A stretch of 64,000 nucleotides of DNA from Octopus vulgaris (Eukaryota), in the NCBI GenBank assembly GCA_951406725.2, contig OX597819.1:71052001-71116000 (forward strand), written 5' to 3'. The notes under the pieces were generated by a model, which searched no databases, had not been told where the DNA came from, and saw nothing but the letters and a program-made list of their open reading frames with translations. Below are positions 27,603-49,862 of this stretch, piece by piece. The position numbers were made by a program, and so were the translations under genes. Position 1 is the stretch's first letter, and each line of letters begins with the position of its first letter.

Positions 27603-27758
27603 CTAATTGTATATCTGTAGAATTCTTTGGGTAACGGTTACATGTTCCTGAAGCGTCCGTAGAGTAACTAAAATGGATATTCGTCGAAGAAAAGCTGAAG
27701 CGTCTTTTCGTAAGAGAAGCCTCTCATCTACTTCTGTTTCATGAGAATCCAAAGGCAT
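27603..27758 (-). CDS. Terminal coding exon 5 (MPLDSHETEVDERLLLRKDASAFLRRISILVTLRTLQEHVTVTQRILQIYN-stop)
   Basis: Acceptor ttttttcatacatttcag|, phase 0, ends in TAG. Amphipathic C-terminal helix pattern. Lies within ORF 27603-27959. Confidence 0.8.
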   Translation of the reverse strand: MPLDSHETEVDERLLLRKDASAFLRRISILVTLRTLQEHVTVTQRILQIYN

Positions 27759-28631
27759 CTGAAATGTATGAAAAAAATATAAATTATTATAAGAGGAACG
27801 AAGTAAAAGGAAAGTAAAAGCGATGGACATTGAGGGATTCGAGTCCTGCGACTCAGGGGCTGATTGTCCGGTTTCCCGGTTTCCATGGTCTATCAGTGAC
27901 CGAGATACCAACATTTGCCCTTGAACGAGACAACAGTCCTCCGTCTGAGAGTAATTCATTCACTGTTGAGTGGACTGGAGTAAAGTGAAATGAAGTTTTT
28001 TGCAGCACACCGTTTAGGAATCGAAACCACGATGTTGCGATCATAAGCATACACATCTTAACGACTAGGCCACGCACCTTCTAAGAAGAAAACACTAACT
28101 AGTCAAAATCAACATTGCACGTATGAACAAACAGCAATTGTAGAGATAGCATTTATTCCACAACTACCAACGAATAAGCTAAATATAAAATGCATATACA
28201 TATATATAAAATTATAATTAAGGGTATCTAAAAGATACCACCATGCTAGAGATAGCAGTCAAAACTAGACACTAGTAACCAATAATTTTTTGCTAGTTTA
28301 TTTGTCTCTTTGTCTTTCTCCTGGTGCTGTATGGATAATTGATGTGGTTTTAGAGTCACGTTTTGACTGCTATCTCTAACATGGCAGTATCTTTTAGATA
28401 CCATTAATTATACTACTACTAATAATTATTGCCTATGCGGTTTTTATTCCCATACTGGCTACTTGATATGATCGGTAATTTAAATAACGATTTTATCCAT
28501 ATATATATAGGTGTGTGTGTGTGTGTGTGTGTGTGCGTGTGTGTGTGTGCGCGTGTGTATGTGTGATGTGTATGTGTGCGTGCGTGCGTGTGTGTGTGTG
28601 TGTGTGTGTATGTGTGTGTGTGTGTGTGTGT

Positions 28632-29106
28632 GAATCGTGAGTTCTATTGTGACATTTGGAAGCGTTTGAGGGAGGACATTCGGCGAGAGAGACTGTATCT
28701 GTGGAGCGTGAAAAATTGGATTCTTCACGACCACAATGCTCCCTGTCACCAAGCTCTCCTCGCTCGTGAGTTCCTCGCCAAAAACAAAATGGTATCACTT
28801 CCGGACCCACGCTATTCACCAGATTTAGCACTTGCTGACTTCCAACTCTTCCCCAAGATGAAAATGCAACTCAAAGGTCGCCGTTTTAACACCGTTGTCG
28901 AGATCCAGAGCGAATCGCAGAAGGTCCTTGACTCGCTTGTAGAAAACGACTCCCAGGCTGGACATCAATGTGGCAGGAATGCTGGGATCGGTGTATTGCT
29001 GAGCAAGGTGACTATTTTCATGGAGACGATGTTAAAACTTAGGTAAATAATTTATTATTTTTATTAAACATGGCGAGTCCGGGAATCTTTTGACACCATT
29101 TCGTAT
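28632..29106 (+). mobile_element. 3' fragment of a mariner transposon
   Basis: WILHDHNAPCH...PRYSPDLALADFQLFPKMKMQLKGRRF. Confidence 0.85.
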
Positions 29107-29344
29107 ATATAGACACGCACTCTAAACCGAGCTTCATTATAATTTCCGTCTCCCGAATTTCACCTAGAAGATATTGCTTCATCCGAAGCTATGAGTGAGT
29201 ACAATCTCCCAATGTGCTGAGCAAGAGAATCGAACCTGTATCATCGTGCCTGAGAAGCGAGGTTCATAACCACTCATATCAATCCACTTACGACTATATT
29301 CAATAGAGAAGACACCAAGAAATGATTGCAATATCGATACTTAC

Positions 29345-29563
29345 CAGCAGATTCAGGTCAGTTAGATAGGATTCAACAAATCTCAAATAGCAATAACGCA
29401 TAGCCTTTGAATCAGCAGTAAGCTTAGAACAGGCAGCCGGATAATGACACGGCACTGCTATGACTTTGGCAGGAGCACATATACGGTCACGTTCTATCTC
29501 AAGTTGGTTCTTAATCAGGACAGCATATTTCCTGAGTGTGGTAGAGATGTTGACTAGGGCCAT
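29345..29563 (-). CDS. Coding exon 4 (MALVNISTTLRKYAVLIKNQLEIERDRICAPAKVIAVPCHYPAACSKLTADSKAMRYCYLRFVESYLTDLNLL)
   Basis: Acceptor tctttcattacag| and donor CTG|GTAAGT. 219 nt, phase 0-0, within ORF 29300-29563. Confidence 0.8.
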
Positions 29564-30370
29564 CTGTAATGAAAGATTTCAGAGAAATCATATATTTCAT
29601 ATTTATTGACAATTCAATGAAATATATCAACAGATTTAGAAACGAATAAGGAATTAATGGATCTTCTTCAAATCTACCCGCCATCGGAAATTGTCTTCAT
29701 TTTCTACCGAACGTAAAATATGAAAAAAATGTTGCCTGCCTTTAAAATTTGGGATTTTGCCCCAAAGCCTCTATTGCAGACATATCAGAAGTCACGATTG
29801 TCTGTTTTTATGAGAACAACATTAACATTATCATAATCACAACACTAACTACATGTCGTCTGTTTACTGTTTCCAGCCAAGTTCTTTGAACCAGTGCAAC
29901 AAACCGTTTATTTTTGTTTTGTTTTTTAAATACAAAGTTTTAATTTTCCAAAAACGAGACTTTCAAGATTGAATTTCGTAAATTTGTGCGAGAATATAAA
30001 GATGGAGGAATATGTAGTAATGTTTCTTCAAGAGATGGAAGTTGTACCTAAGTAGGAAATGTGTCATACGTGCCATATTAGGAATAATGTTAGTGTTAGA
30101 TTTAGTTATTTCTTTTCATACTTTTCTTTCCCTTTACACTTGTTTCAGTCGTTTGACGGCGGCCATGCTGGAGCACCGTCTATAGTCGAAGAAATCGACT
30201 TACTCTTTGTAAGCCTAGTACTTATTCTATCGGTCTCTTTTGCCGAACCGTTAATTTACGGGGACGTAAACACATCAACATCGGTTGTCAAGCGATGGTG
30301 GGGACAAACACAGATACACACAAATACATACATACAAATATATATATATATATGCATATACATACATATA

Positions 30371-30412
<42 letters not shown>

Positions 30413-30413
30413 T

Positions 30414-30483
<70 letters not shown>

Positions 30484-30713
30484 TTATAAAATTTTTAATT
30501 TTAACTTTAAATTTAAATAATTCAAATTTTGAATTTTATATTTTATATATTTTGTATATTATATTAATTAATTTTATTTCTCTGTTTAGGTTTAGGTTTT
30601 TCACTGTTTGATTTGCTTAATAGTGGTTTTATGTCTAATTTAATATATATATTTATACTGTAAAATTAGATTTAATCCTAAATCTAATTTTTCCTTGTAA
30701 GTTTGGATTTACT

Positions 30714-30780
<67 letters not shown>

Positions 30781-31009
30781 CATATATACATATATAATGT
30801 AACAAATGAAGCAAAAAAAGCAATTCCTTCAAAGGGGTCTGAAACACCCAATTCGCTGTTTGTGTAGTTGAATACAACAGAAATAGGGGTATAAATACAA
30901 ATTACAGATAGAGAAATACAATTGACAATATAACGATTTATTTACATTATAATATAATATACTATAAAATATAATATAAAATAACATAACCAATTAAAAA
31001 ATATATAAA

Positions 31010-31090
31010 GCCAACAATTTGTTTCGACTTCTATACATTATTAGATTTAAAACCAATTCGTATCTATGTTATACAAGTCTCTTCAGTGCC
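31010..31090 (-). ncRNA. Hammerhead ribozyme family F, left arm
   Basis: CTGAAGA-gactt...aagtc-GAAAC-aaatt-GTT; stem I imperfect. Confidence 0.55.
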
Positions 31091-31540
31091 AAAGTTCAAA
31101 CTACGAAAAATAGGGACCATCATTTGTTATTTACTTTGAATAGCGTTAACACAGCTAACAGTAAACAAATGTAGAGAGTTACTATATACGTTCTTTCGAA
31201 CAGGCATATTTATGGAATAAATATTAATTTGTATACGATTTATTACCGTTTCTAAAATTAAGTAAAACACTGATTCTTTATTTATTTATATATTTTTATT
31301 ATTATATATTATTAAAATGGGTAGTGATTATTCTCGATTTAAATACTTTCAGATTAATGTTATTGAAGGTATATAAAAACATTTTTAGCCGTTGAAAAAT
31401 TTCTTTAATTAATTATTTGAATTTTGTTGTTTATTGTACTTTTAATAAGTTTGAAATGTTAGCGCTCATGCTCCTGAGCATAGGTATTTCGAAGTAGTAT
31501 TTTGCAATCTAGCATGTATTCCGTCTGTCTTTTGAACCTT

Positions 31541-31621
31541 GGCTCTGAAGAGACTTGTATACATAGATAAGTATTGTTTATAAATCAAATAATGTATATA
31601 AGTCGAAACAAATTGATGGCT
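31541..31621 (+). ncRNA. Hammerhead ribozyme family F, right arm
   Basis: ggct-CTGAAGA-gactt...aagtc-GAAAC-aaatt-GAT-ggct; triplet mutated relative to the left arm. Confidence 0.55.
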
Positions 31622-31734
31622 TTATTTGTTTTTTTAAACTGGTTGTTATATCATATTTTATAGTACATTACATTATAATGTAAATAGATTGTTAGATTGT
31701 CAATCAATTGTATTTCTCTATTTTATTTATCATT

Positions 31735-31784
<50 letters not shown>

Positions 31785-31791
31785 TAAACAG

Positions 31792-31823
<32 letters not shown>

Positions 31824-32261
31824 GGATGATAAGGTAGTCAGAATGTTGGATGATTATATAGTTATTTTTATTTTCACATCATTTATACTTTATTTACACT
31901 TTTCGCGTTTTCTTCCGTTTTCGGATTTATGAAAAAGTGGTTTAAAGTTAGATTTCTAGGTCCTTTTAGATACAAAAAATTTTGTGGGGTTTGCCAAGCA
32001 AGGGAAAAGAAAGAAAAAAATTTTGAGAAGGAGGGGAGGTAAAGAGGCGTGGATTTTGTATTCTTTATATATAAAAAGGCCCAAAAATGTAACTTAAAAC
32101 AACTTTTTGATAAATTTGATAACGAAGAAAGCTTTAAAAGTGTCAATAAAATATAAATAAAATGTAAATACAAAATACATATAAACTTCTAACATTCTGA
32201 CTTGCTTTTTATTCTAAATATACAATATCTGAACATCACATCAAAATCTCTGTGTATATGT

Positions 32262-32292
<31 letters not shown>

Positions 32293-32871
32293 TATATCCC
32301 TTGGGGGATGTAAGGTAATAACTTATTCTTTATTCATTTTGTTATTTTTTCTCTCTATTTTCAACTTTTATTCTATTTTGATATATTTATTTTAATTTAT
32401 TCATATTTAGTTATAATTTTTATGTACCCTAACACTGAGTAAATGTTCTTATAGGCCTTTTAATTATTTCGATTTTTTAATAAGTAATTCAATGCCTTAA
32501 CTATACATTAATAACTATACACATTTGAATTAAACTCTACATTCTAAATTTATATTGATTTAATAGAATAGATATACCACAATATGACATTTTGTTACCA
32601 ATTATATCTACTTGAGCTTCATTATACTTAACACACCAGATGAATACATTGTTTTACAATACCATTATGTACAACTTGGTTTCCGATTGGCTAAAATTTC
32701 AAACTTTAAGGGCATGTAAAAATTTTATTTATTTCTACCGGAAATGAATGTAATTTTTATCATCAACATGTAAAACTATATATTGGTATAGAAAATTAAA
32801 AGAGAAACAAAAATGCCAGCGAGAAAGATTTTAGGAAGATCCGAATTAAATGTTAAGGAGTTTTTACTTAC

Positions 32872-32997
32872 ATTTAACAATTTTGTTTGGTTCTTGATAA
32901 TGTTGTCTTGAAGCGACAACCGTGGTAATGGAACGATCAGTCGGTTACGGAAATAGTCAGCAAATTGATAGCATCTACTTATGTTTTTCCATGGACA
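32872..32997 (-). CDS. Coding exon 3 (CPWKNISRCYQFADYFRNRLIVPLPRLSLQDNIIKNQTKLLN)
   Basis: Acceptor tattcttctacag| and donor AAT|GTAAGT. 126 nt, phase 0-0, no stop codon. Confidence 0.8.
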
Positions 32998-35003
32998 CTG
33001 TAGAAGAATATATTACAATACTATCTTAAATATATAAAGGGAAAAATTGTCTAGTATGTACGTAAATAAACCGAGATTTCTGTATGATTGTAGCAAGTCG
33101 TTTTGTAGCGAGGATAGTAGTTTATATAAAAATTCGACAATGTAATCAAAGATTACATTCCCATACTAAAATAATCAAATAAGATTTCATTAATTTAGAA
33201 TAAATCTAATAATTAAAATATTACGAAATGATTAGTTGTATGTAAATACCAATTTTGATATAATCAATTTATTCATTTTGAATTTTATTAAAACGTAGGC
33301 ACTATGATTTGTGTTAAGAGTAATGTGCCTCTAAGAAGCGAGTGATTTCATATTTTCAGAATTTAAAGAACAAAACGTATTTGATAATCAATGAAAATAA
33401 ACGAAACCTTTGTTGTACAACAATGCCCACTTTTCTTATGAGGCCGCTTTAATGTGTATTAGGATCTTTTCAGTTGGGCTACCACTTTTCAGTTTCTTCA
33501 ATTTTTGTTCCAGTTGATTTCATATTTAATGTATTGGTGCAGTTTTGTGTAGTAATTATTTTCATGAAATTTATTTTGCCATAAATCAATAATTAAAGAG
33601 TTAATAGCTTTTAAAGTTTGTAAATTTTGGGTAATTTTAGCCAATCGAAAGCCACAGACATTTAGTTGGCTGTTTCCATAGTAACAAGCCATGCTGTTAT
33701 CAAGCTCCTTACCCTTCTGTTGCTGTCCTATCAAGCCACGCAATCATTTTTTGCTTATTAAATGCTTAAAATATGAGGTATAAGGCAGTCGTGAGATGTG
33801 CAAAAAATAACAGCTAAATAGGCATTAATGCAAGAAGTTTTTGATTTTTGTTTTTGCATAATATTATGAATTTCCGTGTGCAGAATATAAATTCGAAAAT
33901 CCCACCAAAATAAAAGAGTTATGAAGAGCTATATGACGTGGTAAGCAGAATTCCGCGGGTATTTATTTCATTTGTTTACGGTTTCATATTAAATCATTTT
34001 TTTATTTTCGCAATGTTGACAACTCGTGCTGTCACGCACAAAATGATAGCTTCCAAATCCTGTTCTTTGACTGGGTAAAAATGATCAAAATTTAAACCTC
34101 TGTAACTTCTTTTAAGCTTTTTTCTGGGAAAAGTGAATTATCTCATGAGATTCAGTGTGGAAAATTACATCTATACACAAACTTTTAAAATTTTCATTAA
34201 GCTTTAAAATCTCCATAGGTGCAACCAAATAGAAAAGACCCATGTATTACACTATTACAGTTCCATCTATCATTTCTTGTACGTGGGCCAGCAATTATGT
34301 GCAGGATCGGGTTAATCCTTTTAAATCGATCTCAATACTGAGATTTTATCAACCTCAGAGAAATGAAAGTTAATGTTGACCTTGACGGATGTCCTCAATA
34401 CATAACAACTAATGTTTTATGATTTTTTTCTTAGTTATCACCATGGTTTGGTCTTGTGCGCTCCGTGCAGTTGTTATTGATCCATTTGTCAAACTGTAAA
34501 GTGGGACAATTTTTTTTGACGTACGGCGCTTATTCTATTCTAATCTATGCACAAGGCCCGAAATTTTGGGGGAGGGGACCAGTCGATTAGATCGTCCCCA
34601 GTATGCAACTGGTACTTAATTTATCAACCCCGAAAGGATGAAAAGCAAAGTCGACCTCGGCGGAATTTGAACTCAGAAATCAGAACAAGGCAGACGAAAT
34701 ACCTATTTCTTTACTACATACAAGGGGCTAAACACAGAAGGGACAAACAAGGACAGACAAACGGATTAAGTCGATTATATCGACCCCAGTGCGTAACTGG
34801 CACTTATTTAATCGACCCCCGAAAGGATGAAAGGCAAAGTCGACCTCGGCCGAATTTGAACTCAGAACGTAGCGGCAGACGAAATACCGCAAAGCATTTC
34901 GCCCGGCGTACTAACGTTTCTGCCAGCTCGCCGCCTTACATACCACGCGTATTAAGATGGAATAAGAATTTACTAAATCTTAGAGAACTAAGCGAAAACT
35001 TAC

Positions 35004-35173
35004 GCAAGTGTTGAAGGTATTGTTTACAGCAATCGATACTACTTTGGCGGTGTTCAATGCCAACTCGGGATCAGTTATTGTTGATTTTATAGGTGGCTCT
35101 GAGGGTTGCATTAGTACTCCATAAACCAATGTAATCCACGCAAATAAATATAGTGCAGAAGAAAACTGTAAAG
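35004..35173 (-). CDS. Coding exon 2: signal peptide and first predicted helix (LQFSSALYLFAWITLVYGVLMQPSEPPIKSTITDPELALNTAKVVSIAVNNTFNTC)
   Basis: Acceptor ttttttcatttag| (alternative tttacag| at 35165) and donor TGC|GTAAGT. Open frame overlapping ORF 34980-35192, with a hydrophobic LYLFAWITLVYG stretch. Confidence 0.8.
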
Positions 35174-35550
35174 CTAAATGAAAAAATAGCATAAATTAGA
35201 AGATGACGAAGGAAACAAGGAAATATTAATACTTTATTAATCATTCATAAGAGAAATAGTTAAGTTGCGACAGTCAATTATATTAAAGTAGCAACGGTAA
35301 ATTTATGTGGTGTAAACTGTAAGTTACACTGAGAGAATGTGATGGTAAAAGTGTAAATGTGTGCATATGTGTATGTGCATGAGGGAGAGAGAAAGAAAGA
35401 AAGAGTAGGAGAGAGAGAGAAAGAGTAGGAGAGAGGGAAAGAGGAGTGAGTGGAAGAGAGAGATAGAGTGAGAGAGAGATTCAAGCAAATGCCACCAGCC
35501 CATACTCACATCCACTCATTCACACACATAAGAATGCTATCAGCACACAC

Positions 35551-35625
<75 letters not shown>

Positions 35626-36372
35626 TATTGTTATACTTGGGATGGTAAACATTTTGCTAATTAGTGTACGTGTGTTTAATTGACAAAAATCCTCAAAGTA
35701 TAACAATAAATATAAATTAATACATACATACATACATACATACATACATACATACATACATACATACATACATACATACATACATGTGTGTAAAAGTTGG
35801 GTATTTTCAGAAAAGCATTCCACCCAAATACTGGGCTATCAATGCTGTTTTCAGGACAGTCACATAGTAATGTGGGTTTGGCGAAGAATAAATTATAATC
35901 TAAATAATATGACAACAAAAAAATTCTTTAACACATCTTTAATGATTCGTTACATTTGTTTCTGTACCAACTCTACTTGCAACGCCAGTTTACGCAAACA
36001 TTCGAAGTGGTGATTTATGTAATATTTGCGGTTTTAGACAATAGAGTGGCATTTCATCAGAGTTGCATGAAAGATGTGATATCACACTGTGCATCTTACA
36101 GACATTGTTTTTGGAATCCCAGTAGCTGAGATTATTAAAAATTTTTTTTTATTTTATCTAGTTTCAGCTCACGAGCTTTGGCCATGCTGGGGCACCGCCA
36201 TTGCTGCGTTTGCGAATATAAATTCAAAATTAAGGAACGGAGCAGAGAAAAACCAGGCTGCATATGTTTCATAGCTAGCAGAACCTCAGAAGTAGTAACT
36301 GTCCAAACGAGGGAGAATCCGCCAGCTATTCGTAGGGCCTTTTAAAAAAAAATTATTGTTTAAGGTATCTTT

Positions 36373-36456
36373 GGCCTGACGAGTAGCTATCGGATTATCC
36401 CTCGTTTGCGTAATTACCACTTCCGATGGTCTGCTAGCTATGAAACATATGTAGCC
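36373..36456 (+). ncRNA. Type I hammerhead ribozyme family G, with a degenerate inverted copy at 36256-36339
   Basis: ggc-CTGACGA-gtagcta...tagctat-GAAAC-atat-GTA-gcc; palindromic stem III ACATATGT. Confidence 0.8.
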
Positions 36457-36741
36457 TGGATATTATCTACACCGTTCCTTAATTTTGGGGATTATATATA
36501 TATATATATATTTAATCAATATAGGGTGGCAAAAAAAAAAAAATTTGTAGAATTCTTTTGCCACCAGCGGCCTAGTGGGAAAAAATTAAATAGTCATAGA
36601 CCATTTTTAAGTTCAACATCAACAATCAAGGAACGGCCATAATAGGCCATTCACCCACTAGAAATAACAGCCAAAGCTTCAACCACAAATAAAAATTAAT
36701 TCCGTAAACCAGGAGAAAATTTAAAAAACATTTACCCTGTA

Positions 36742-36848
36742 ATTTCTTATACGATATACCGTTTCATCTGCTGATTAATGGTAAACTAACCTGATTAAAT
36801 TAAATCAAGCCAATCTTCCACAGGCCCTCAGATTCTTCAGTAAGAAAT
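36742..36848 (-). ncRNA. Type I hammerhead ribozyme family H, downstream copy
   Basis: atttctta-CTGAAGA-atctg...cagat-GAAAC-gg tata tc-GTA-taagaaat; 8-bp stem I. Confidence 0.88.
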
Positions 36849-37237
36849 AGCCCAAGTCGGAACAGATATTTTCACGAGGCATTTCCGACCTTGCCAAGTT
36901 TATATCTGACCTAAAATTTTCAAATCGTCGCACTCGCGCCAAATTTATCGGCAGCAAATAAATATAAGCCGTCGATTCCATTACGGAATTAACCAGAAAA
37001 TTCATAATTAATCAATATAGGGTGGCAAAAAAAAAAAATTTTGTAGAATTCTTTTGCCACCAGCGGCCTAGTGGGAAAAAATTAAATAGTCATAGACCAT
37101 TTTTAAGTTCAACATCAACAATCAAGGAACGGCCATAATAGGCCATTCACCCACTAGAAATAACAGCCAAAGCTTCAACCGCAAATAAAAATTAATTCCG
37201 TAAACCAGGAGAAAATTTAAAAAACATTTACCCTGTA

Positions 37238-37344
37238 ATTTCTTATACGATATACCGTTTCATCTGCTGATTAATGGTAAACTAACCTGATTAAATTAAA
37301 TCAAGCCAATCTTCCACAGGCCCTCAGATTCTTCAGTAAGAAAT
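37238..37344 (-). ncRNA. Type I hammerhead ribozyme family H, upstream copy
   Basis: Same fold and core as 36742-36848, offset by 496 nt. Confidence 0.88.
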
Positions 37345-37347
37345 AGC

Positions 37348-37425
<78 letters not shown>

Positions 37426-37455
37426 AAATATATATATACATATATATATACACAC

Positions 37456-37504
<49 letters not shown>

Positions 37505-37560
37505 CATATATATATATACATATATACATACATATATATATACATACATACATACATACA

Positions 37561-37591
<31 letters not shown>

Positions 37592-37901
37592 GCTTTCGGT
37601 GCGAATGTTTTTTTATTACGGCGCCGTAATTTATAATTTGTAAATAATAATAATGCATCTTTTTAATATATATAAGCTTAAAGCTTATGGCGATCACCGT
37701 GCAATGACTAAGGAAAATAGTCTAATAAAAGGGCATATAAGCGCTCCACAGAAAAAAGAAGGCTTTGCTATCCGTGTGAAGAAAGCCTTCTTTTTTCCTG
37801 TCGAGGGCTTATATGCTCCTTTATTAGACTATTTCCCTTTGTCATTGCACGGTGATCGCCATAAGCTTTTTTTATATATATATAAGAACCCCCCCCCCCA
37901 C

Positions 37902-37956
<55 letters not shown>

Positions 37957-38648
37957 TAAAAGGAAAAGTCGATCCCTGCGGGATTTGATCTCAGAACGTG
38001 AAGACGAACGAAACATTGCTAAGCACTGCGGCCGGTGTGCTAACAATTTTGCGAGCTCGCCTTCTTTATTGGAACAATTAATATCAACAAATATAAAAAA
38101 CATAAGTATGTAGGCGGAAGAATATATCCTCAAAGAAAACACGACTAAAAAAAAAGAAACGAAAAAAAAAAAAGATAAAAAGGGCGCGAATACCTGAATA
38201 ATTTCATTCGAAACATCATATCCTTATTCTTTTAAGAAAAAAAAATTTTTAAATGCTGATTATTTTGGGTATAACGCCATTATCAATTGAATGCTAATCA
38301 GCGGATGACCATCTTGTCAATGGGCGATGTCTTGGCTCTTTCTATATTATGTCAAGTGATGTATTTACCCACAATGCTACTACAATCGTTTCCTCAATTA
38401 ATAGGAATATGGGTCATGCAGCATGCATGAGAATCCTTAAAATTTTTACTTTACCTCAGAGTAATTCTTACGTTTTACTCCTTTTCTCTTAACTGGCCGA
38501 AACTTCGATGTCACTGTCATCAATATTTTTTATAAAGAATAATAAATTTGTACCCCACAAAAGTATAGAGTAAGCCATCAGATTAATGCAAAATTGTTTT
38601 TATTATGGGCATTAATAAATGTGTGCGTGTTATGAACATTATGAACAT

Positions 38649-39121
38649 TAGGCGCAGGAATGGATGTGTGGTAAGTAGCTTGCTAACCAACCACATGGTT
38701 CCGGGTTCAGTCCCACTGCGTGGCATCTTGGGCAAGTGTCTTCTGCTATAGCCCCGGGCCGACCAATGCCTTGTGAGTGGATTTGGTTGACGGAAACTGA
38801 AAGAAGCCTGTCGTATATATGTATATATATATCAGTAATAATATATGGTGAAATTAATTAATTTGGAGAAATCATTAATTTCACCAAGTAGATTTCGGCA
38901 TGTAAAAGCCCCGTTCGAGGAAAGTTTAAGTAATACTAAGTAATTAAGGGTTTAGCAACGATTTGCTTCACCACACACCGAATTTAGAAATAGCAGTCAA
39001 AGAGTTATAGCTATTCTTTCTAGTAGAAAGAATAGCTATAACTCTTTGACTGCTATTTCTAAATTCGGTGTGTGGTGAGGCAAATCGTTGCTAAACCCTT
39101 AATTACTTAGTATTACTTATG

Positions 39122-39154
<33 letters not shown>

Positions 39155-39350
39155 TTGTCCCTCTAGCATTGCTTGACAACCGATGCTGGTGTGTTTACGT
39201 CCCCGTCACTTAGCGGTTCGGCAAAATAGACCGATAGAATAAGTACTGGGCTTACAAAGAATAAGTCCCGGGGTCGATTTGCTCGACTAAAGGCGGTGCT
39301 CCAGCATGGCCGCAGTCAAATGACTGAAACAAGTAAAAGAGTAAAAGAGA
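38649..39350 (+). mobile_element. Full-length tRNA-derived SINE with internal microsatellite, interrupted by a palindromic insert
   Basis: Head with A/B-box-like gtgtggtaag...ggttcagtccc; tail ...gactgaaacaagtaaaaga. Partial copies near 7600, 9700, 24370, 30135, 48085, 50350 and 60990. Confidence 0.9.
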
Positions 39351-39859
39351 GTATTAATGTGTGCGTATGTTTGTCTTTGTGTGCGTTTGTGTATACATAA
39401 ACATACACAATTTTATATGCATATGTACGTATACACACACACACATGTTTCTTTAAACAAGCGACCACGTTTAAATCTCATCATTTTTTTACTTTCTAAG
39501 TTTTCTTATTTTATCAGCTTTTGCAATTGGTTTGTATCGGTAGGGTTCCTTAATCTATTCCCAACGTTTCTAAATTCTCATAGTCTTATCATCAAGAATT
39601 TCCTTGCTTATATTGTTTATTATATATGGTTTATATTGTTTGTTATATAGCGAACGAATTCGTGTGGTTTTTCCCACACTTAAATAATATAAAGAAAAGC
39701 AACAAAAACTTTGACATATAAAGCTCCACAGATTCAAGAAACAGAGCAAGGGAGAGGACTCGTGTATGTTTTTTTTTTGTTGAACATTAAAATTCTCTCG
39801 TTATTTTCTGTTTTTATTCGGTCTAAGTAATTGGAAATGTTTGAGTATAAAACCACAGT

Positions 39860-40185
39860 AGTCAATGGAGCACTCTGTCGATTACGACGACGAGGGTCCC
39901 AGCTGATACGATCAACAGAACAGCTTACTCTGGAAATGTACGTGCAAGTGGCTGAGCACTCCACAGACCCTTAACGTAGTTCTCAGGGAGATTCAGCATG
40001 ACACAGTGTGTGACAAGGCTGGCCCTTTGAAATACAGGTACTACTCAATTTTTCCAGCTGAGTGGTCTGGAGCAACATGAAATAAATTGTCTTTCTCAAG
40101 AACACAACGTGTCACCGGGAATTGAAATCACGACCTTACGCTCGCCAGCCGAATGCCCTAACCACTAAGCCACGCGCCTTCACTA
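39860..40185 (-). mobile_element. tRNA-derived SINE, third family
   Basis: Reverse of gaaggcgcgtggcttagtggttagg...; plus-strand copy at 41610-41915, partial copies at 4135-4345 and 43070-43320. Confidence 0.85.
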
Positions 40186-40884
40186 GTAGCTAGTATAGAA
40201 TACTGTTTAAGGTGGCGAGCTGGCGGAATCGTTAACCGCATCAGGAAAAGTGCTTAGCTTACCACACCGGGAAAAGTAATGATGCTATAAGTTCAAATAC
40301 CGTTGTATCGACTTTGTATTTTAGCAGTGGGAGTCGATAAAATAAGTACCAGTTGAACACTGGGGGTCAATGTAATCGACTAATCCGCCTCCCCCGAAAT
40401 TTCTGGCTTTTCCACCTTCAACTGAAGGCTGTAGGTGGAAAAGTGGCAGTGTGACTTTGTCACACTTTCCTAAGTTTTATTATTATGTTTTTAAAATCAG
40501 CAATCCCAAATGATGGGATCCGGCAGCAATGCAATTTTATGCGAGAAATTACATGATAGATAAAAGTAGTAGAAGATAAAAAAGAAACGAGCAATAAAGC
40601 AAAAAAAAACAAACCCAAAACAAAAAAAAAAAGCAACAACAAAACACTAACAAAAAAACTGCAAAAACGTAAAACAAAACGAGATAAAATTATTTTGATG
40701 TTGAAAAGTTTGGCGATCTTTGGTGTTAGGGACATATATATCTGTGGTGACTAATGATGAAACCTGAACAATCCGGAAAGCGTAATTGCATAAAAGTTAC
40801 TTCTTAAAGTTATCGGGGATCATTTACCTTTTGATTACAAATAATAAATATCGTAATGAAACTAATATAAGATCTACAACTTAC

Positions 40885-40894
40885 GTATTTTCAT
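40885..40894 (-). CDS. Coding exon 1 of candidate secreted helical cytokine-like gene (ATG AAA ATA C)
   Basis: Minus strand reads ccaaatATGAAAATAC|GTAAGT. The phase-1 donor joins in frame to the acceptor at 35173, giving MKIPLQF. TATA box about 115 nt upstream. Confidence 0.65.
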
Positions 40895-41008
40895 ATTTGG
40901 TAGATTTGTTATTAGTTATGCAATAAAATATAATCTCAAGCTCACAAGAATTTTCCCATCAACTCTCTGTCAGGACTGGAAACTTCTGGAAACACATGTG
41001 ACAGCTTT

Positions 41009-41016
41009 CTTATATA
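41009..41016 (-). promoter_or_regulatory. TATA box of the candidate cytokine-like gene
   Basis: Minus strand cccTATATAAGaaag, about 115 nt upstream of the ATG and directly downstream of a (CT)n tract. Confidence 0.55.
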
Positions 41017-41018
41017 GG

Positions 41019-41121
<103 letters not shown>

Positions 41122-41481
41122 TCTATAAATAGAATAGAAATATTACTTTCTGTTTCCGAATTTCTCAGTGATTTGTTTTTTTTTGTTTTTTTTTTTTTCA
41201 ACACAGAAAGTAAAAAAATTATTGGAAGAGGGAAAAGAGTAAAGAAAGAAAATGCGAAAGAAAGGCTGACAGAAGATGTGTGTGTGTGTGTGAGAGAGAG
41301 AGAGGGGGGGAGAGAAAGAAAGAGTGAAGGAGAGAAAGAAAGAGAGTAGTCACTGAAGGACTATATAGACAGTGAGCTAAGAGAGACCGTTTGTTATGCA
41401 CAAGTGTAACTTCACGGCTGGTTGTTTTCTCCGTGCGTGTAGAGTTTTACCTAAGCGATCTAAAGCTTTCTAACTTTACGC

Positions 41482-41491
41482 GGGAATTTCC
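41482..41491. promoter_or_regulatory. NF-kB (Rel) consensus site GGGAATTTCC
   Basis: Exact match to GGGRNWYYCC about 470 nt upstream of the TATA box. Confidence 0.45.
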
Positions 41492-44510: not shown

Positions 44511-46096
44511 ATTTATATATATATGTATACGCATGTATAGTTATACCTCAAATTTTGATAACTATTTTAGAGATCTTGGTTATGATCACTAGTTTTAAGC
44601 TTATAATTATAAGAGTAATTGGGTAAGAATTTATAGTACTATAAAATTTTTTTTATATATTTATTAATCATATAAGATTTTTATATATTTATTAATCATA
44701 TAAGATTTTTAAAGTATATATAATAATTAGTGGTTATAAATTATTTAATTTATTCTGTATTAAGTATTATTTATCATAGTTATTTTATTAATAAATCTTA
44801 CAGTGTAGAGCGATTCTATTCTTTATTTGTGACTTCATTCTATTTACATTTATTGATAAACCATAACTGTTCCCATTCACAATCTTCATTGATAAAGCGT
44901 ATTTGTTCCTCATGCTTAATGAATTCTTCAACAATTTATTCGTTTTTTGCTAATAATGTAATTCCACGAGTATTCTTATAAACGCTGTAAAGAGGTTTTC
45001 CGATTCAAGTATTTAGTTCATTACAAAACCTCGCTAAGCTAAGTATATATTTATATTTAAGATCTTTAGATTTTAATATTTTATAAGTCTTATGGTTTAA
45101 TAATATTGTTTTTTTATGTAAATATCGTTGTTTATGTAATGATCTAATTATCGTAATTTTCTATATAATTATTAGATATTAACTTTAAGTTTATTCGTAA
45201 GAATTTACTTAGCGATAGATATGTTGTTAGCAAGTATACGAGTTGTTTAAGTTAGGTTTATGTATATACATGTATTAATAGCATTAATTGTAGTTTTAAA
45301 TTTCTTATAAATATTATTTTAACTTATATATTGTCTTTTTAAATTGATATTTGCTAGTTTTATTATTCCCATTGATAAATATATTTATAGTATTTATTTG
45401 ATACTATATAACTACGAATTGATTATTTCTTTGAGTATTTTAAATATAAGATTTCTGAAAGTTATTATTTAGCCAACGAGATATAAAGATAATTAATTTT
45501 CTATAGCGTTCGTTTAAGATTGTTTGTTTGTATTTTTGAAATTAGCTATTTCATCTTTAAATATAAAAAATTAATTTATTAGGTCTTTATTATATGTGCA
45601 TATATATTTATTTATAGAGATTATTTTAGATCTTAATTATAATATTTATATACTTTTATATATTTTCATTGATAATTTATATATTATTTAAATTTTATAT
45701 TTTTAATAATATTATAGTTTTTTTTTTGTAAAATATTTATGTAATTAGATATTGACTATTACTGATATTAGATTATTGGTAGGCTTCTTACCTTAAAAAT
45801 TAATACTTAAAAATTAAAATTAATATTTAACATTATAATCGATGTTTTGATACAATCATAATCGTTAAGTTTCTAGTTTGATTATAGAGTTTTTTATCAG
45901 TAAAATTATTATATTATTTCATAACATAAGGGGGATCAGCCATCTAAATGTGGCTAGGGTCAGGGCGGGGTGGTGGGGGTGTTACTGATGCATTTAGCCC
46001 CAGGCGAACATCAACGTCACCAGAAGGGCTGACACCATCTCGGTGTCCTTGCCAGCCTGCAAAGGGAGATCAGCCTCCCCGAAGATACGGATACTA

Positions 46097-46139
46097 CACA
46101 CGGACCGGTTTCGAGGTTATTGCCTCTTGTCAACGTATG
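46097..46139 (-). ncRNA. Minimal type I hammerhead, U3-A8 variant
   Basis: catacg-TTGACAA-gagg caataa cctc-GAAAC-cg-GTC-cgtgtg. Confidence 0.8.
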
Positions 46140-46469
46140 GTAAGCACCGTTCTTCGTTGAGGGACTTCCCCTACAGGCTGGATATATAGGGATTTTCACA
46201 GTAACCACAGTCACTGGCGTAGAAAATCCGTTCGAAAACAATAATAAATCTCTGAGCGAGATATAAACAGTAACTGCTCTATAACATGACCCTAGCCACA
46301 TTCAGATGGCTGATCCCCCTTATGTTATAGAGCAGTTACTGTTTATATCTCGCTCAGAGATTTATTATTGTTTTCGAACGGATTTTCTACGCCAGTGACT
46401 GTGGTTACTGTGAAAATCCCTATATATCCAGCCTGTAGGGGAAGTCCCTCAACGAAGAGCGGTGCTTAC

Positions 46470-46512
46470 CATACGTTGACAAGAGGCAATAATCTCGAAA
46501 CCGGTCCGTGTG
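46470..46512 (+). ncRNA. Minimal type I hammerhead, U3-A8 variant
   Basis: catacg-TTGACAA-gagg caataa tctc-GAAAC-cg-GTC-cgtgtg. Confidence 0.8.
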
Positions 46513-46798
46513 TAGTATCCGTATCTTCGGGGAGGCTGATCTCCCTTTGCAGGCTGGCAAGGACACCGAGATGGTGTCAGCCCTTCTGGTGACGTTGATG
46601 TTCGCCTGGGGCTAAATACATCAGTAACACCCCCACCACCCCGCCCTGACCCTAGCCACATTCAGATGGCTGATCCCCCTTATGTTATAGAGCAGTTACT
46701 GTTTATATCTCGCTCAGAGATTTATTATTGTATTATATTATTTATTTCTTTAAAATATTGTTTAAATATTTCTGATTATTTATTAAAATATTACAATT

Positions 46799-49309: not shown

Positions 49310-49862
49310 ACAACCTTTCAACCCATGGGTCTGTTTTGTGTAGCTGTTGCTGGCGAGGGCTTTACAGAATAGAAGTTCAAACCCTTCGACTCATGTGTCT
49401 ATTTCGTGTAGTTGTTGTTGGCGAGGGCGTCACCAGGTCGGAGTGCAGATCCTTCAACCCACGGGTCTGTTTTATGTAGTTGTTGCTGGCGAGGCTTCAC
49501 CAGGTCGGACTTCAAACCTTCAACTTATGAGTCTGTTTTGTGTAGTTGTTGTTGCCGAGGGCTTCACCAGTTCCGAGTGCAAACCCTTCGACTCATGGGT
49601 CTGTTTTGTGTAGTTGTTGCTGGTGAGGACTTTACGAGGTAGGAGTGAAAACCCGCAACTCACGGGTCTGTTTAATGTAATTATTGCCGGCAAGGGTTTC
49701 ACCAGGTCGGAGTGCAAACCATTCGACTCATGGGTCTGTTTTATGTAGTTGTTTCTGACGAGCGCTTTATGAGGTCGGAGTGCAAACCCTTCAAGCCATG
49801 GGTCTGTTTTAAATAGTTGTTGCTGGTGAGGGCTTTACGAAGTCGGAGTGTAAACCATTACC
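49310..49862. repeat. Minisatellite, about 8 copies of a 67-68 bp unit
   Basis: catgggtctgttttgtgtag-like motif at 49324, 49392, 49460, 49526, 49594, 49661, 49729 and 49797. Confidence 0.9.

What the first reader, a model, noticed from the sequence alone, without database searches (positions are those of the whole stretch)
36512..37350. Complete two-ribozyme retrozyme unit (496 nt) in sense orientation inside intron 1
Seen: two near-identical hammerheads with perfect cores and 8-bp stem I lie 496 nt apart. Predicted cleavage after positions 37246 and 36750 would release an exact unit-length RNA (37245 down to 36750). Both are on the minus strand, which is the pre-mRNA strand of the candidate cytokine gene. 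Established: non-LTR retrozymes in animals are tandem hammerhead repeats that yield small circular RNAs. Inference: transcription of the host gene would cut its own intron 1 and produce a monomer or circRNA, possibly coupling retrozyme expression to immune induction or dampening the gene.
Basis: partly seen in the sequence, partly recalled or inferred. Interest (0 to 1): 0.85.

Follow-up and report, generated by a model that had tools for sequence, protein, structure and literature searches.

The report
Self-cutting RNA repeat in octopus gene
A young, protein-free 496-base repeat with two predicted self-cutting RNA motifs sits in the first intron of a likely IL-6-like octopus gene, as one of roughly a thousand insertions whose ends suggest that a Penelope-type enzyme copies a likely RNA circle from two fixed start points, and nothing shows that the host gene uses it.

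Summary
Observation confirmed. Two identical type I hammerheads, 496 nt apart, lie on the pre-mRNA strand in intron 1 of an intact five-exon gene for a likely long-chain four-helix cytokine. The copy is one member of a large, young family (1,052 exact core matches; roughly 1,000 end junctions), inserted in (TA)n. The family is more informative than the locus. Most insertions are two back-to-back arrays whose outer ends stop at two fixed unit positions 110 nt apart. In 29 of 31 two-armed loci there is one arm at each end. Arms share their haplotype in 25 of 27 loci (14% shuffled), arrays reach 9 units, and 5' ends ignore the cleavage site. This is the Penelope-like-element (PLE) twin-start 'tail' signature and fits rolling-circle reverse transcription, so far only hypothesised for animal retrozymes. 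A sister family about 74% identical keeps both ends and covaries in all three ribozyme helices. No autonomous partner was found among three intact PLE families. Cleavage, circles and any effect on the gene are untested. Sense orientation in an intron is expected, so co-option is unsupported.

The parts
36508..37351 (-). Retrozyme insertion, 1.7 tandem units, single-armed; 3' end at unit position 347, 5' end at unit position 496/1 (unit position 1 = 37350)
37238..37350 (-). Upstream type I hammerhead: stem I 37344-37337 with 37245-37238, core 37336-37330, long helix II 37329-37262, GAAA 37261-37258, stem III, predicted cleavage after 37246; predicted pseudoknot of 37350-37346 with the helix II internal loop
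   Evidence: pseudoknot inferred by eye and 81 tables, not counted by a tool
36742..36854 (-). Downstream hammerhead, identical; predicted cleavage after 36750
36750..37245 (-). Predicted 496-nt monomer or circle
   Evidence: release and ligation untested
37114..37148 (-). Family end site 1 (unit 237, at 37114), 13 nt downstream of a hairpin (37148-37127); likely reverse-transcription start; not used as an end in this copy
   Evidence: 36 of 71 arms end at 230-239; hairpin kept in sister family
37004..37061 (-). Family end site 2 (unit 347, at 37004; its second copy at 36508 is this insertion's 3' end), 17 nt downstream of a hairpin with a compensatory change in the sister family
   Evidence: 35 of 71 arms end at 342-351
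37351..37591 (.). (TA)n/(TATG)n microsatellite, target on the 5' side
36489..36507 (.). Short (TA)n run, target on the 3' side
40885..40894 (-). Likely coding exon 1 of the host gene (3 codons + 1 base, GTAAGT donor); TATA box near 41016
   Evidence: fits the start of P0002; inferred
35004..35173 (-). Host exon 2 (signal-peptide-like start)
   Evidence: tblastn to P0002, splice sites
32872..32997 (-). Host exon 3
29345..29563 (-). Host exon 4
27603..27758 (-). Host exon 5 with stop codon

Best explanation
This is a young, non-coding hammerhead repeat (a non-LTR retrozyme) inserted into a TA microsatellite in intron 1 of a likely IL-6-type cytokine gene, likely as a passenger, and likely copied there by a Penelope-like element's enzyme from a circular RNA. 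Proposed cycle: tandem copies are transcribed; the ribozymes cut out unit-length RNA, which a host ligase closes (inferred from mussel, coral and axolotl). A PLE endonuclease nicks both strands of a (TA)n tract. Each nick primes reverse transcription at one of two internal, hairpin-marked sites 110 nt apart that end in AU. Each enzyme runs round the circle for up to nine or more turns. The two cDNA ends are joined back to back at short shared sequence. Shown: anatomy, target, fixed ends, arm pairing, haplotype sharing, helix covariation. Inferred: cleavage, circle, PLE enzyme, start sites. This copy has only the position-347 arm. Host transcription would make it one possible source of circles among many, and any loss of host splicing would be a side effect.
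For: Of 71 arms with canonical ends at 40 best-matching loci (41 insertions), 36 end at 230-239 and 35 at 342-351, nearly all running into (TA)n; 29 of 31 two-armed loci have one of each (p = 2e-7). In 15 further chromosome-1 sites picked by position, 14 held the family: 9 clear 237+347 pairs, 2 more with a tiny 347 arm, 1 with a truncated second arm, 2 single, no same-end pair. Both arms share the haplotype in 25 of 27 testable loci (shuffled mean 14%, maximum 41% in 5,000); 44 of 53 multi-copy arms are uniform; 9 variants seen at one locus only are fixed in all of 3-7 units, 6 of them across both arms; 12 haplotypes in 39 loci. 5' ends are not enriched at the cleavage site (2 of 71 at 100-112, 1.9 expected); 163 of 164 units cross it without an indel, the exception being a fold-back edge. 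Either arm can be the longer one, which argues against fold-back copying. 153 of 158 complete cores are intact, 4 of the 5 changes being GUA to GUC. Across 26 aligned ribozymes of both families 98.5% of 338 cells pair and 6 of 13 pairs change on both sides, against 32-44% pairing when slid. The sister family keeps both end sites and the twin arms. An intact 775-aa PLE family here leaves the same signature with a 30-nt tail. PLE enzyme cuts both strands and starts at two internal sites in vitro (PMC11167929).
Against: No autonomous partner shares sequence with the unit: three intact PLE families gave no significant blastn match, and 0 of 20 position-347 junctions have a PLE ORF upstream. The 110-nt tail is three times the 30-40 nt reported for PLEs. 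Two loci on different chromosomes share a T-A-A-A-A-T unit pattern at position 236, 9 of 53 arms are mixed and 2 of 27 arm pairs differ, so multimeric or several templates are used at times. The active fold is not the predicted dominant one. In the anole PLE, uncut RNA was the main template in vitro. In one search the two pair-counting measures did not beat the shuffles (238/500 and 500/500), and most covariation is one event between two families. 5' ends within 96-118 were 8 against 3.3 expected, a mild excess near the ribozyme.
Confidence: 0.72

Rival explanations
1. Same PLE-driven twin priming, but on linear, uncut multimeric transcripts of existing arrays; circles are rare or by-products.
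For: Shared T-A-A-A-A-T pattern in L034 and L035; 9 of 53 mixed arms; weak predicted stems I and III; uncut RNA is the main template for the anole PLE; 1 of 9 Xenopus dimers cleaved. Seamless cleavage junctions fit this equally well.
Against: Copying linear arrays can only shorten them and cannot fix a new variant in every unit, yet 9 locus-private variants are fixed in 3-7 units and 12 uniform haplotypes exist in 39 loci; ribozyme cores and helices are conserved. 'Private' means among 40 loci only.
Confidence: 0.15
2. One reading: the host has recruited this copy; cytokine induction releases circles and intron cutting tunes cytokine output.
For: Both ribozymes are complete and sense; the downstream site is about 1.6 kb from the 3' splice site; a kB-consensus match lies about 475 nt upstream of the TATA box. 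Intronic ribozymes can lower splicing: CPEB3, and fast synthetic ribozymes (PMC10919898 passages).
Against: [quoted passage not shown]
Confidence: 0.07
3. Single PLE terminal repeats were inserted and then expanded locally at the DNA level (unequal crossing-over), as proposed for vertebrate retrozymes.
For: Proposed in the Li et al. preprint; arrays are uniform within a locus.
Against: Both inverted arms share private variants; fixed 3' ends, random 5' ends and about 0.1% singleton divergence fit arrays made at insertion; no parent PLE with this terminal repeat was found.
Confidence: 0.05
4. The tandem duplication at this locus is an assembly artefact.
For: It sits between long microsatellites.
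Against: The two copies differ at two places and the same structure recurs at dozens of loci on many chromosomes.
Confidence: 0.01

Closest known systems
Animal non-LTR retrozymes (Cervera & de la Pena 2020, PMC7229834, parts 2-4 of 6 read; Li, Clavereau & Pollet 2026, 10.64898/2026.07.22.740005, parts 1-3 of 5 read)
   Same: Non-coding head-to-tail repeats, one type I hammerhead per unit, low GC, structured monomer, no LTR/PBS/PPT, PLEs present in the same genome, often intronic.
   Different: Unit 492-496 nt (170-400 nt in the 2020 paper, within Li's 51-972); helix II about 68 nt, missed by Rfam; (TA)n target with no discernible duplication; twin inverted arrays with two fixed ends, which the parts I read do not describe; no sequence match to a PLE terminal repeat was found, unlike 24 of 57 Xenopus families matching known TEs.
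Endonuclease-bearing Penelope-like elements, Neptune/Hydra/Naiad type (Craig et al. 2021, PMC8557442, passages; Arkhipova et al. 2013, PMC3846280, passages; Frangieh et al. 2024, PMC11167929, parts 1-2 of 4)
   Same: (TA)n targeting, 5' truncation, inverted 5' copy, a 'tail' on one end only, order hammerhead - start 1 - start 2.
   Different: No ORF; tail 110 nt instead of 30-40; both arms are multi-unit arrays; full-core ribozyme rather than the minimal U3-variant motifs seen in two of this genome's intact PLEs.
Non-autonomous Chlamys elements such as MRC1 (PMC8557442 passage)
   Same: Non-autonomous PLE derivatives with multi-copy head-to-tail insertions.
   Different: Those generally match an autonomous family at the 3' end and most Chlamys lack hammerheads; they are algal.
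CPEB3 intronic HDV-like ribozyme (PMC10919898, passages)
   Same: Self-cleaving motif in a host intron that could compete with splicing.
   Different: CPEB3 is single-copy with tested function; this is a recent copy of a high-copy mobile repeat with no test.

Membership tests
Non-LTR retrozyme | Tandem repeat with a complete type I hammerhead in at least two consecutive units | tested here: met
   153 of 158 cores intact in the family
Non-LTR retrozyme | No protein-coding capacity; no LTR/PBS/PPT structure | tested here: met
   only a 68- and a 92-codon stop-to-stop frame overlap the unit, apart from frames that are mostly microsatellite; ends are (TA)n junctions
Non-LTR retrozyme | Dispersed multi-copy family | tested here: met
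   1,052 core matches vs 49 control; 237 and 537 (forward strand) end junctions vs 0 control
Non-LTR retrozyme | Ribozyme helices supported by covariation | tested here: met
   98.5% paired, 6 of 13 pairs changed on both sides, slid controls 32-44%; largely one event between two families
Non-LTR retrozyme | Self-cleavage in vitro | not testable with these tools
   folding predictions are mixed
Non-LTR retrozyme | Expressed as linear and circular monomer RNA | tested here: inconclusive
   only contigs of runs guessed to be RNA were available; they cannot show strand, ends or circles
Non-autonomous PLE derivative | Insertion into (TA)n, inverted 5' copy, optional tail at one end | tested here: met
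   29 of 31 two-armed loci with one of each end; replicated
Non-autonomous PLE derivative | Sequence match to the terminal repeat of an autonomous PLE | tested here: inconclusive
   no match in the three intact families examined or upstream of 20 junctions; about 30 recently active Penelope families are reported in this species, most not examined
Autonomous PLE | RT plus GIY-YIG ORF | tested here: not met
   none in the unit
IL-6/IL-12a/G-CSF-type long-chain cytokine (host gene) | Four-helix fold or family match | tested here: inconclusive
   for the orthologue P0002: ESM Atlas features 0.90-0.93 to IL6/IL12/GCSF/Hormone_1 clusters and TM 0.57 to one such cluster; no Pfam hit; my single-sequence AlphaFold model failed, pLDDT 34
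IL-6/IL-12a/G-CSF-type long-chain cytokine (host gene) | Five coding exons, phases 1,0,0,0, signal-peptide-like start (family pattern recalled, from no call) | tested here: met
   exon 1 inferred

The most novel reading that the evidence does not exclude
Octopus retrozyme circles are copied by a two-headed PLE enzyme that starts at two hairpin-marked sites on one circle and rolls both ways into a TA tract; and this intronic copy is an immune-inducible source locus, so that switching on an IL-6-like cytokine both releases mobile RNA circles and cuts its own pre-mRNA before splicing, making a polymorphic damper of a mollusc cytokine.
Probability: 0.1. Interest if true: 0.85.

Novelty: new variant of a known kind. 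Interest (0 to 1): 0.52.

Why it matters
How animal retrozymes move is still a hypothesis: the 2020 paper names PLEs as candidates, and the 2026 preprint says it has limited evidence on the life cycle. This family records the mechanism in about a thousand young insertions: PLE-type target, two fixed ends paired one per arm, and arrays amplified from one monomer. It gives a concrete template (two hairpin-marked start sites 110 nt apart) and three intact PLE enzymes in the same genome to test in the existing in vitro assay. It also adds a long-helix-II hammerhead that Rfam misses. The intronic position in a likely IL-6-like gene offers a natural allele test of whether intronic ribozymes tax splicing, but is probably incidental.

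Tried and rejected
Rfam gathering scan: 0 hits in 64 kb. Partner search: GIY-YIG scan, 150 of 6,136 candidates scored; 781-aa, 775-aa and a third (frames up to 1,214 aa) PLE family had no blastn match to the unit beyond chance words; 0 of 20 position-347 junctions had a PLE ORF; flanks of single-armed and diverged copies held other repeats. One Pfam accession tried for a PLE domain was not in the library. RNA: no RNA holder listed on record; 20 runs of 9 studies hold the stretch, 14 of them guessed RNA. Three guessed-RNA runs and one large run were laid on one permuted unit plus flank; contigs cover the unit and cross the cleavage site, but give no strand, end, level, circle or locus of origin, and the junction bin was masked as repeat, so presence of this insertion in other animals is undetermined. 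The summed depth in the large run is no copy number and was not used. AlphaFold on the host orthologue without alignment failed, so no fold search was run. Fold-back self-priming was rejected as the main source of inverted arms: either arm can be longer and the two 5' coordinates are mostly unrelated, though L031 and L229 have palindromic junctions. Template jumping between linear monomers is disfavoured (no junction indels, no excess of 5' ends at 100-112). Rows dropped before the arm counts: 5 secondary or diverged hits, pieces under 60 nt, and 5 of 76 arms with other ends; L032b was left out of the haplotype tests. Depletion of sense copies in introns could not be tested without annotation. 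Earlier findings of this scan by sequence and by place: none. Not in print, as far as searched: searches listed no paper on octopus retrozymes; the 2026 O. vulgaris repeat paper has 0 mentions of hammerhead or ribozyme in its main text. I saw no supplements, and those of PMC7229834, PMC13282606 and the 2026 preprint may list this family.

Full report
1. Observation. A 496-nt unit runs from 37351 to 36855 on the minus strand, followed by 347 nt of a second copy to 36508, between (TA)n tracts. Each copy has the same type I hammerhead: 8-bp stem I, CUGAAGA, a helix II of about 68 nt, GAAA, a 4-bp stem III, and GUA with the A at 37246 and 36750. Rfam finds nothing at gathering threshold, likely because of the long helix II. 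The monomer folds better than 100 of 100 shuffles. Below, unit position 1 is 37350 and cleavage is between 105 and 106.

2. Host gene. Exon 4 matches proteins labelled Octopus vulgaris (100%), O. bimaculoides (88%, 227 aa, P0002) and O. sinensis. P0002 maps to exons 2-5. A 10-base exon at 40894-40885 with a GTAAGT donor fits its first residues, giving 226 codons and phases 1,0,0,0, with a TATA box near 41016 and a kB-consensus match at 41491. Exon 1 is my inference; the deposited model P0001 differs, but the element is intronic and sense in both. The ESM Atlas places P0002 near IL-6, IL-12a, G-CSF and growth-hormone clusters (0.90-0.93; TM 0.57). Pfam gives no hit and my fold failed. 'Likely long-chain four-helix cytokine' is as far as this goes.

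3. The family. The unit has 710 candidates in the genome; the 40 scored are nearly all 98-99% identical. The core pattern occurs 1,052 times against 49 for the control. Junctions into (TA)n number 237 at one end site and 537 on the forward strand alone at the other (the reverse count is inflated by the variable gap), so roughly 1,000 insertions including older subfamilies. All 20 such junctions sampled were family members, most 84-97% identical, with no PLE ORF. Singleton differences among units are about 0.1% (81 in 77,630 bases); at the rate quoted for octopus repeats (distance 0.09 = 25 My) that is very roughly 0.3 My, an upper-leaning figure because copying and assembly errors are included.

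4. Insertion anatomy. At the 40 best loci most insertions are two back-to-back arrays with 3' ends facing out into (TA)n. Of 71 arms with canonical ends, 36 stop at 230-239 and 35 at 342-351; 29 of 31 two-armed loci have one of each (p = 2e-7). Nine loci are single-armed, this one among them. An independent set of 15 chromosome-1 sites gave 9 clear pairs, 2 with a tiny second arm, 1 truncated, 2 single, 1 unrelated. 5' ends are scattered, with a cluster at 480-1 (9 vs 2.6 expected, p = 0.001, post hoc) at a hairpin just upstream of the ribozyme, where this copy also ends. Each end site lies 13-17 nt downstream of a hairpin and ends in AU, which could pair with a nicked TA primer (inference). 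Published PLE insertions show the same traits: (TA)n bias, inverted 5' copy, and a 30-40-nt tail at one end (PMC8557442 passages; PMC3846280 passages). The anole PLE protein cuts both strands, starts at two internal sites that define the tail, and is predicted to be a dimer (PMC11167929, parts 1-2). An intact 775-aa family in this genome shows two ends 30 nt apart in (TA)n.

5. Template. Arrays reach 9 units in my sample and one arm lists 14 cores in a row. Both arms share a haplotype in 25 of 27 loci against 14% when shuffled; 44 of 53 multi-copy arms are uniform; 9 variants private to one of the 40 loci are fixed in all of 3-7 units; 12 haplotypes occur in 39 loci. 163 of 164 units cross the cleavage site without an indel and 5' ends are not enriched at 100-112. 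A new variant fixed in every unit needs a monomer to be amplified, which a circle explains simply. Against a pure monomer-circle model: two loci share a T-A-A-A-A-T pattern, 9 arms are mixed and 2 arm pairs differ, so multimers or template switches occur. Shared haplotypes could also reflect two RNAs from one source locus.

6. Ribozyme. 153 of 158 complete cores are intact, and recurrent changes fall at tolerated positions N7 and H17 (tolerance recalled). A sister family (about 487 nt, 74% identical's hit, 2,542 candidates) keeps both end sites and twin arms and swaps base pairs in all three helices: 98.5% of cells paired, 6 of 13 pairs changed on both sides, slid controls 32-44%. Most of that is one event between two families, and two of five shuffle measures were not exceeded. 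A GGC upstream of stem I and a GCC in the helix II loop are kept in both families and could form a pseudoknot (read by eye). Folding predicts stable helix II but weak stems I and III, with an alternative pairing that hides the core, so cleavage rate is open; a two-unit dimer fold is possible, as described for other animal hammerheads (PMC4209133, part 1).

7. Partner. Three intact, high-copy PLE families were examined; none shares sequence with the unit. About 30 recently active Penelope families are reported for this species, so the search is incomplete. The enzyme is inferred from the footprint, not identified.

8. Effect on the host gene. If the ribozymes cut fast, they would sever intron 1 about 1.6 kb before its 3' splice site; fast intronic ribozymes lower splicing and slow ones do not (PMC10919898 passages). 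Nothing here shows such an effect. The copy is young, has the majority haplotype, and is one of about a thousand; twin arms make sense-strand ribozymes in introns common, and 42-44% of Xenopus retrozyme copies overlap introns. Sequencing-run contigs could not address expression of this locus.

9. Known versus new. It works like, and by the features I could test is, an animal non-LTR retrozyme (PMC7229834, parts 2-4; 2026 preprint, parts 1-3); cleavage and circles are untested. Its insertions look like those of a non-autonomous PLE derivative, with the parent unidentified. New relative to what I read: an octopus family, the long-helix-II ribozyme, the 110-nt tail, and one-of-each arm pairing combined with single-haplotype arrays. 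Searches found no description; supplements were not seen. Two unchecked notes of this scan describe ribozyme-free tandem repeats with PLE-type ends in other genomes; they agree but are not evidence.

10. Verdict. Real feature; new variant of a known kind; interest 0.52, carried by the family's mechanism footprint rather than by the cytokine intron.

Noticed in passing
window 27603-41491, minus strand: Intact five-exon gene for a likely IL-6/IL-12a/G-CSF-type cytokine, unnamed in databases and apparently mis-modelled in the deposited annotation (P0001 skips exons 2-3); kB-consensus match at 41491. A long-chain cytokine in a cephalopod may deserve its own study.
   Followed up: partly
L116-L145 (e.g. 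L118:1727-1848 minus): Older sister retrozyme family (~487 nt) whose ribozyme core reads CCGAUGA (U4 to C) in all copies tabulated, with covarying helices and the same two end sites.
   Followed up: partly
L146-L175; L100-L106; L176-L199: Three high-copy PLE families with intact frames, all ending in (TA)n: 775 aa (76 scored copies 100% identical over the query, two ends 30 nt apart), 781 aa (with an upstream ORF and direct repeats), and a third with 150 identical hits and a minimal UUGAAGA hammerhead.
   Followed up: partly
L034 and L035: Arrays on two chromosomes share a T-A-A-A-A-T pattern at unit position 236, next to end site 1; a five-unit template or common source is possible.
   Followed up: partly
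L211:1223-1791: One arm is made of short repeats of unit positions 5-245, a possible 240-nt mini-unit that keeps the ribozyme and end site 1.
   Followed up: no
window 36225-36487, 37661-37888, 38927-39119: Three MITE-like or palindromic inverted repeats in the same intron; the last has 96-nt arms, 99% complementary, 1 nt apart.
   Followed up: no
window 36130-36202: A short SINE-like piece with far higher summed depth than its neighbours in all four laid runs.
   Followed up: no
window 49312-49856: 68-bp tandem repeat, 8 copies.
   Followed up: no
window 28567-29046, plus strand: Transposase-like fragment (mariner-like, label recalled) in intron 4 of the host gene.
   Followed up: no
window 45948-46661: Two near-identical copies of a roughly 290-nt GC-richer sequence, seen as duplicated reading frames.
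   Followed up: no
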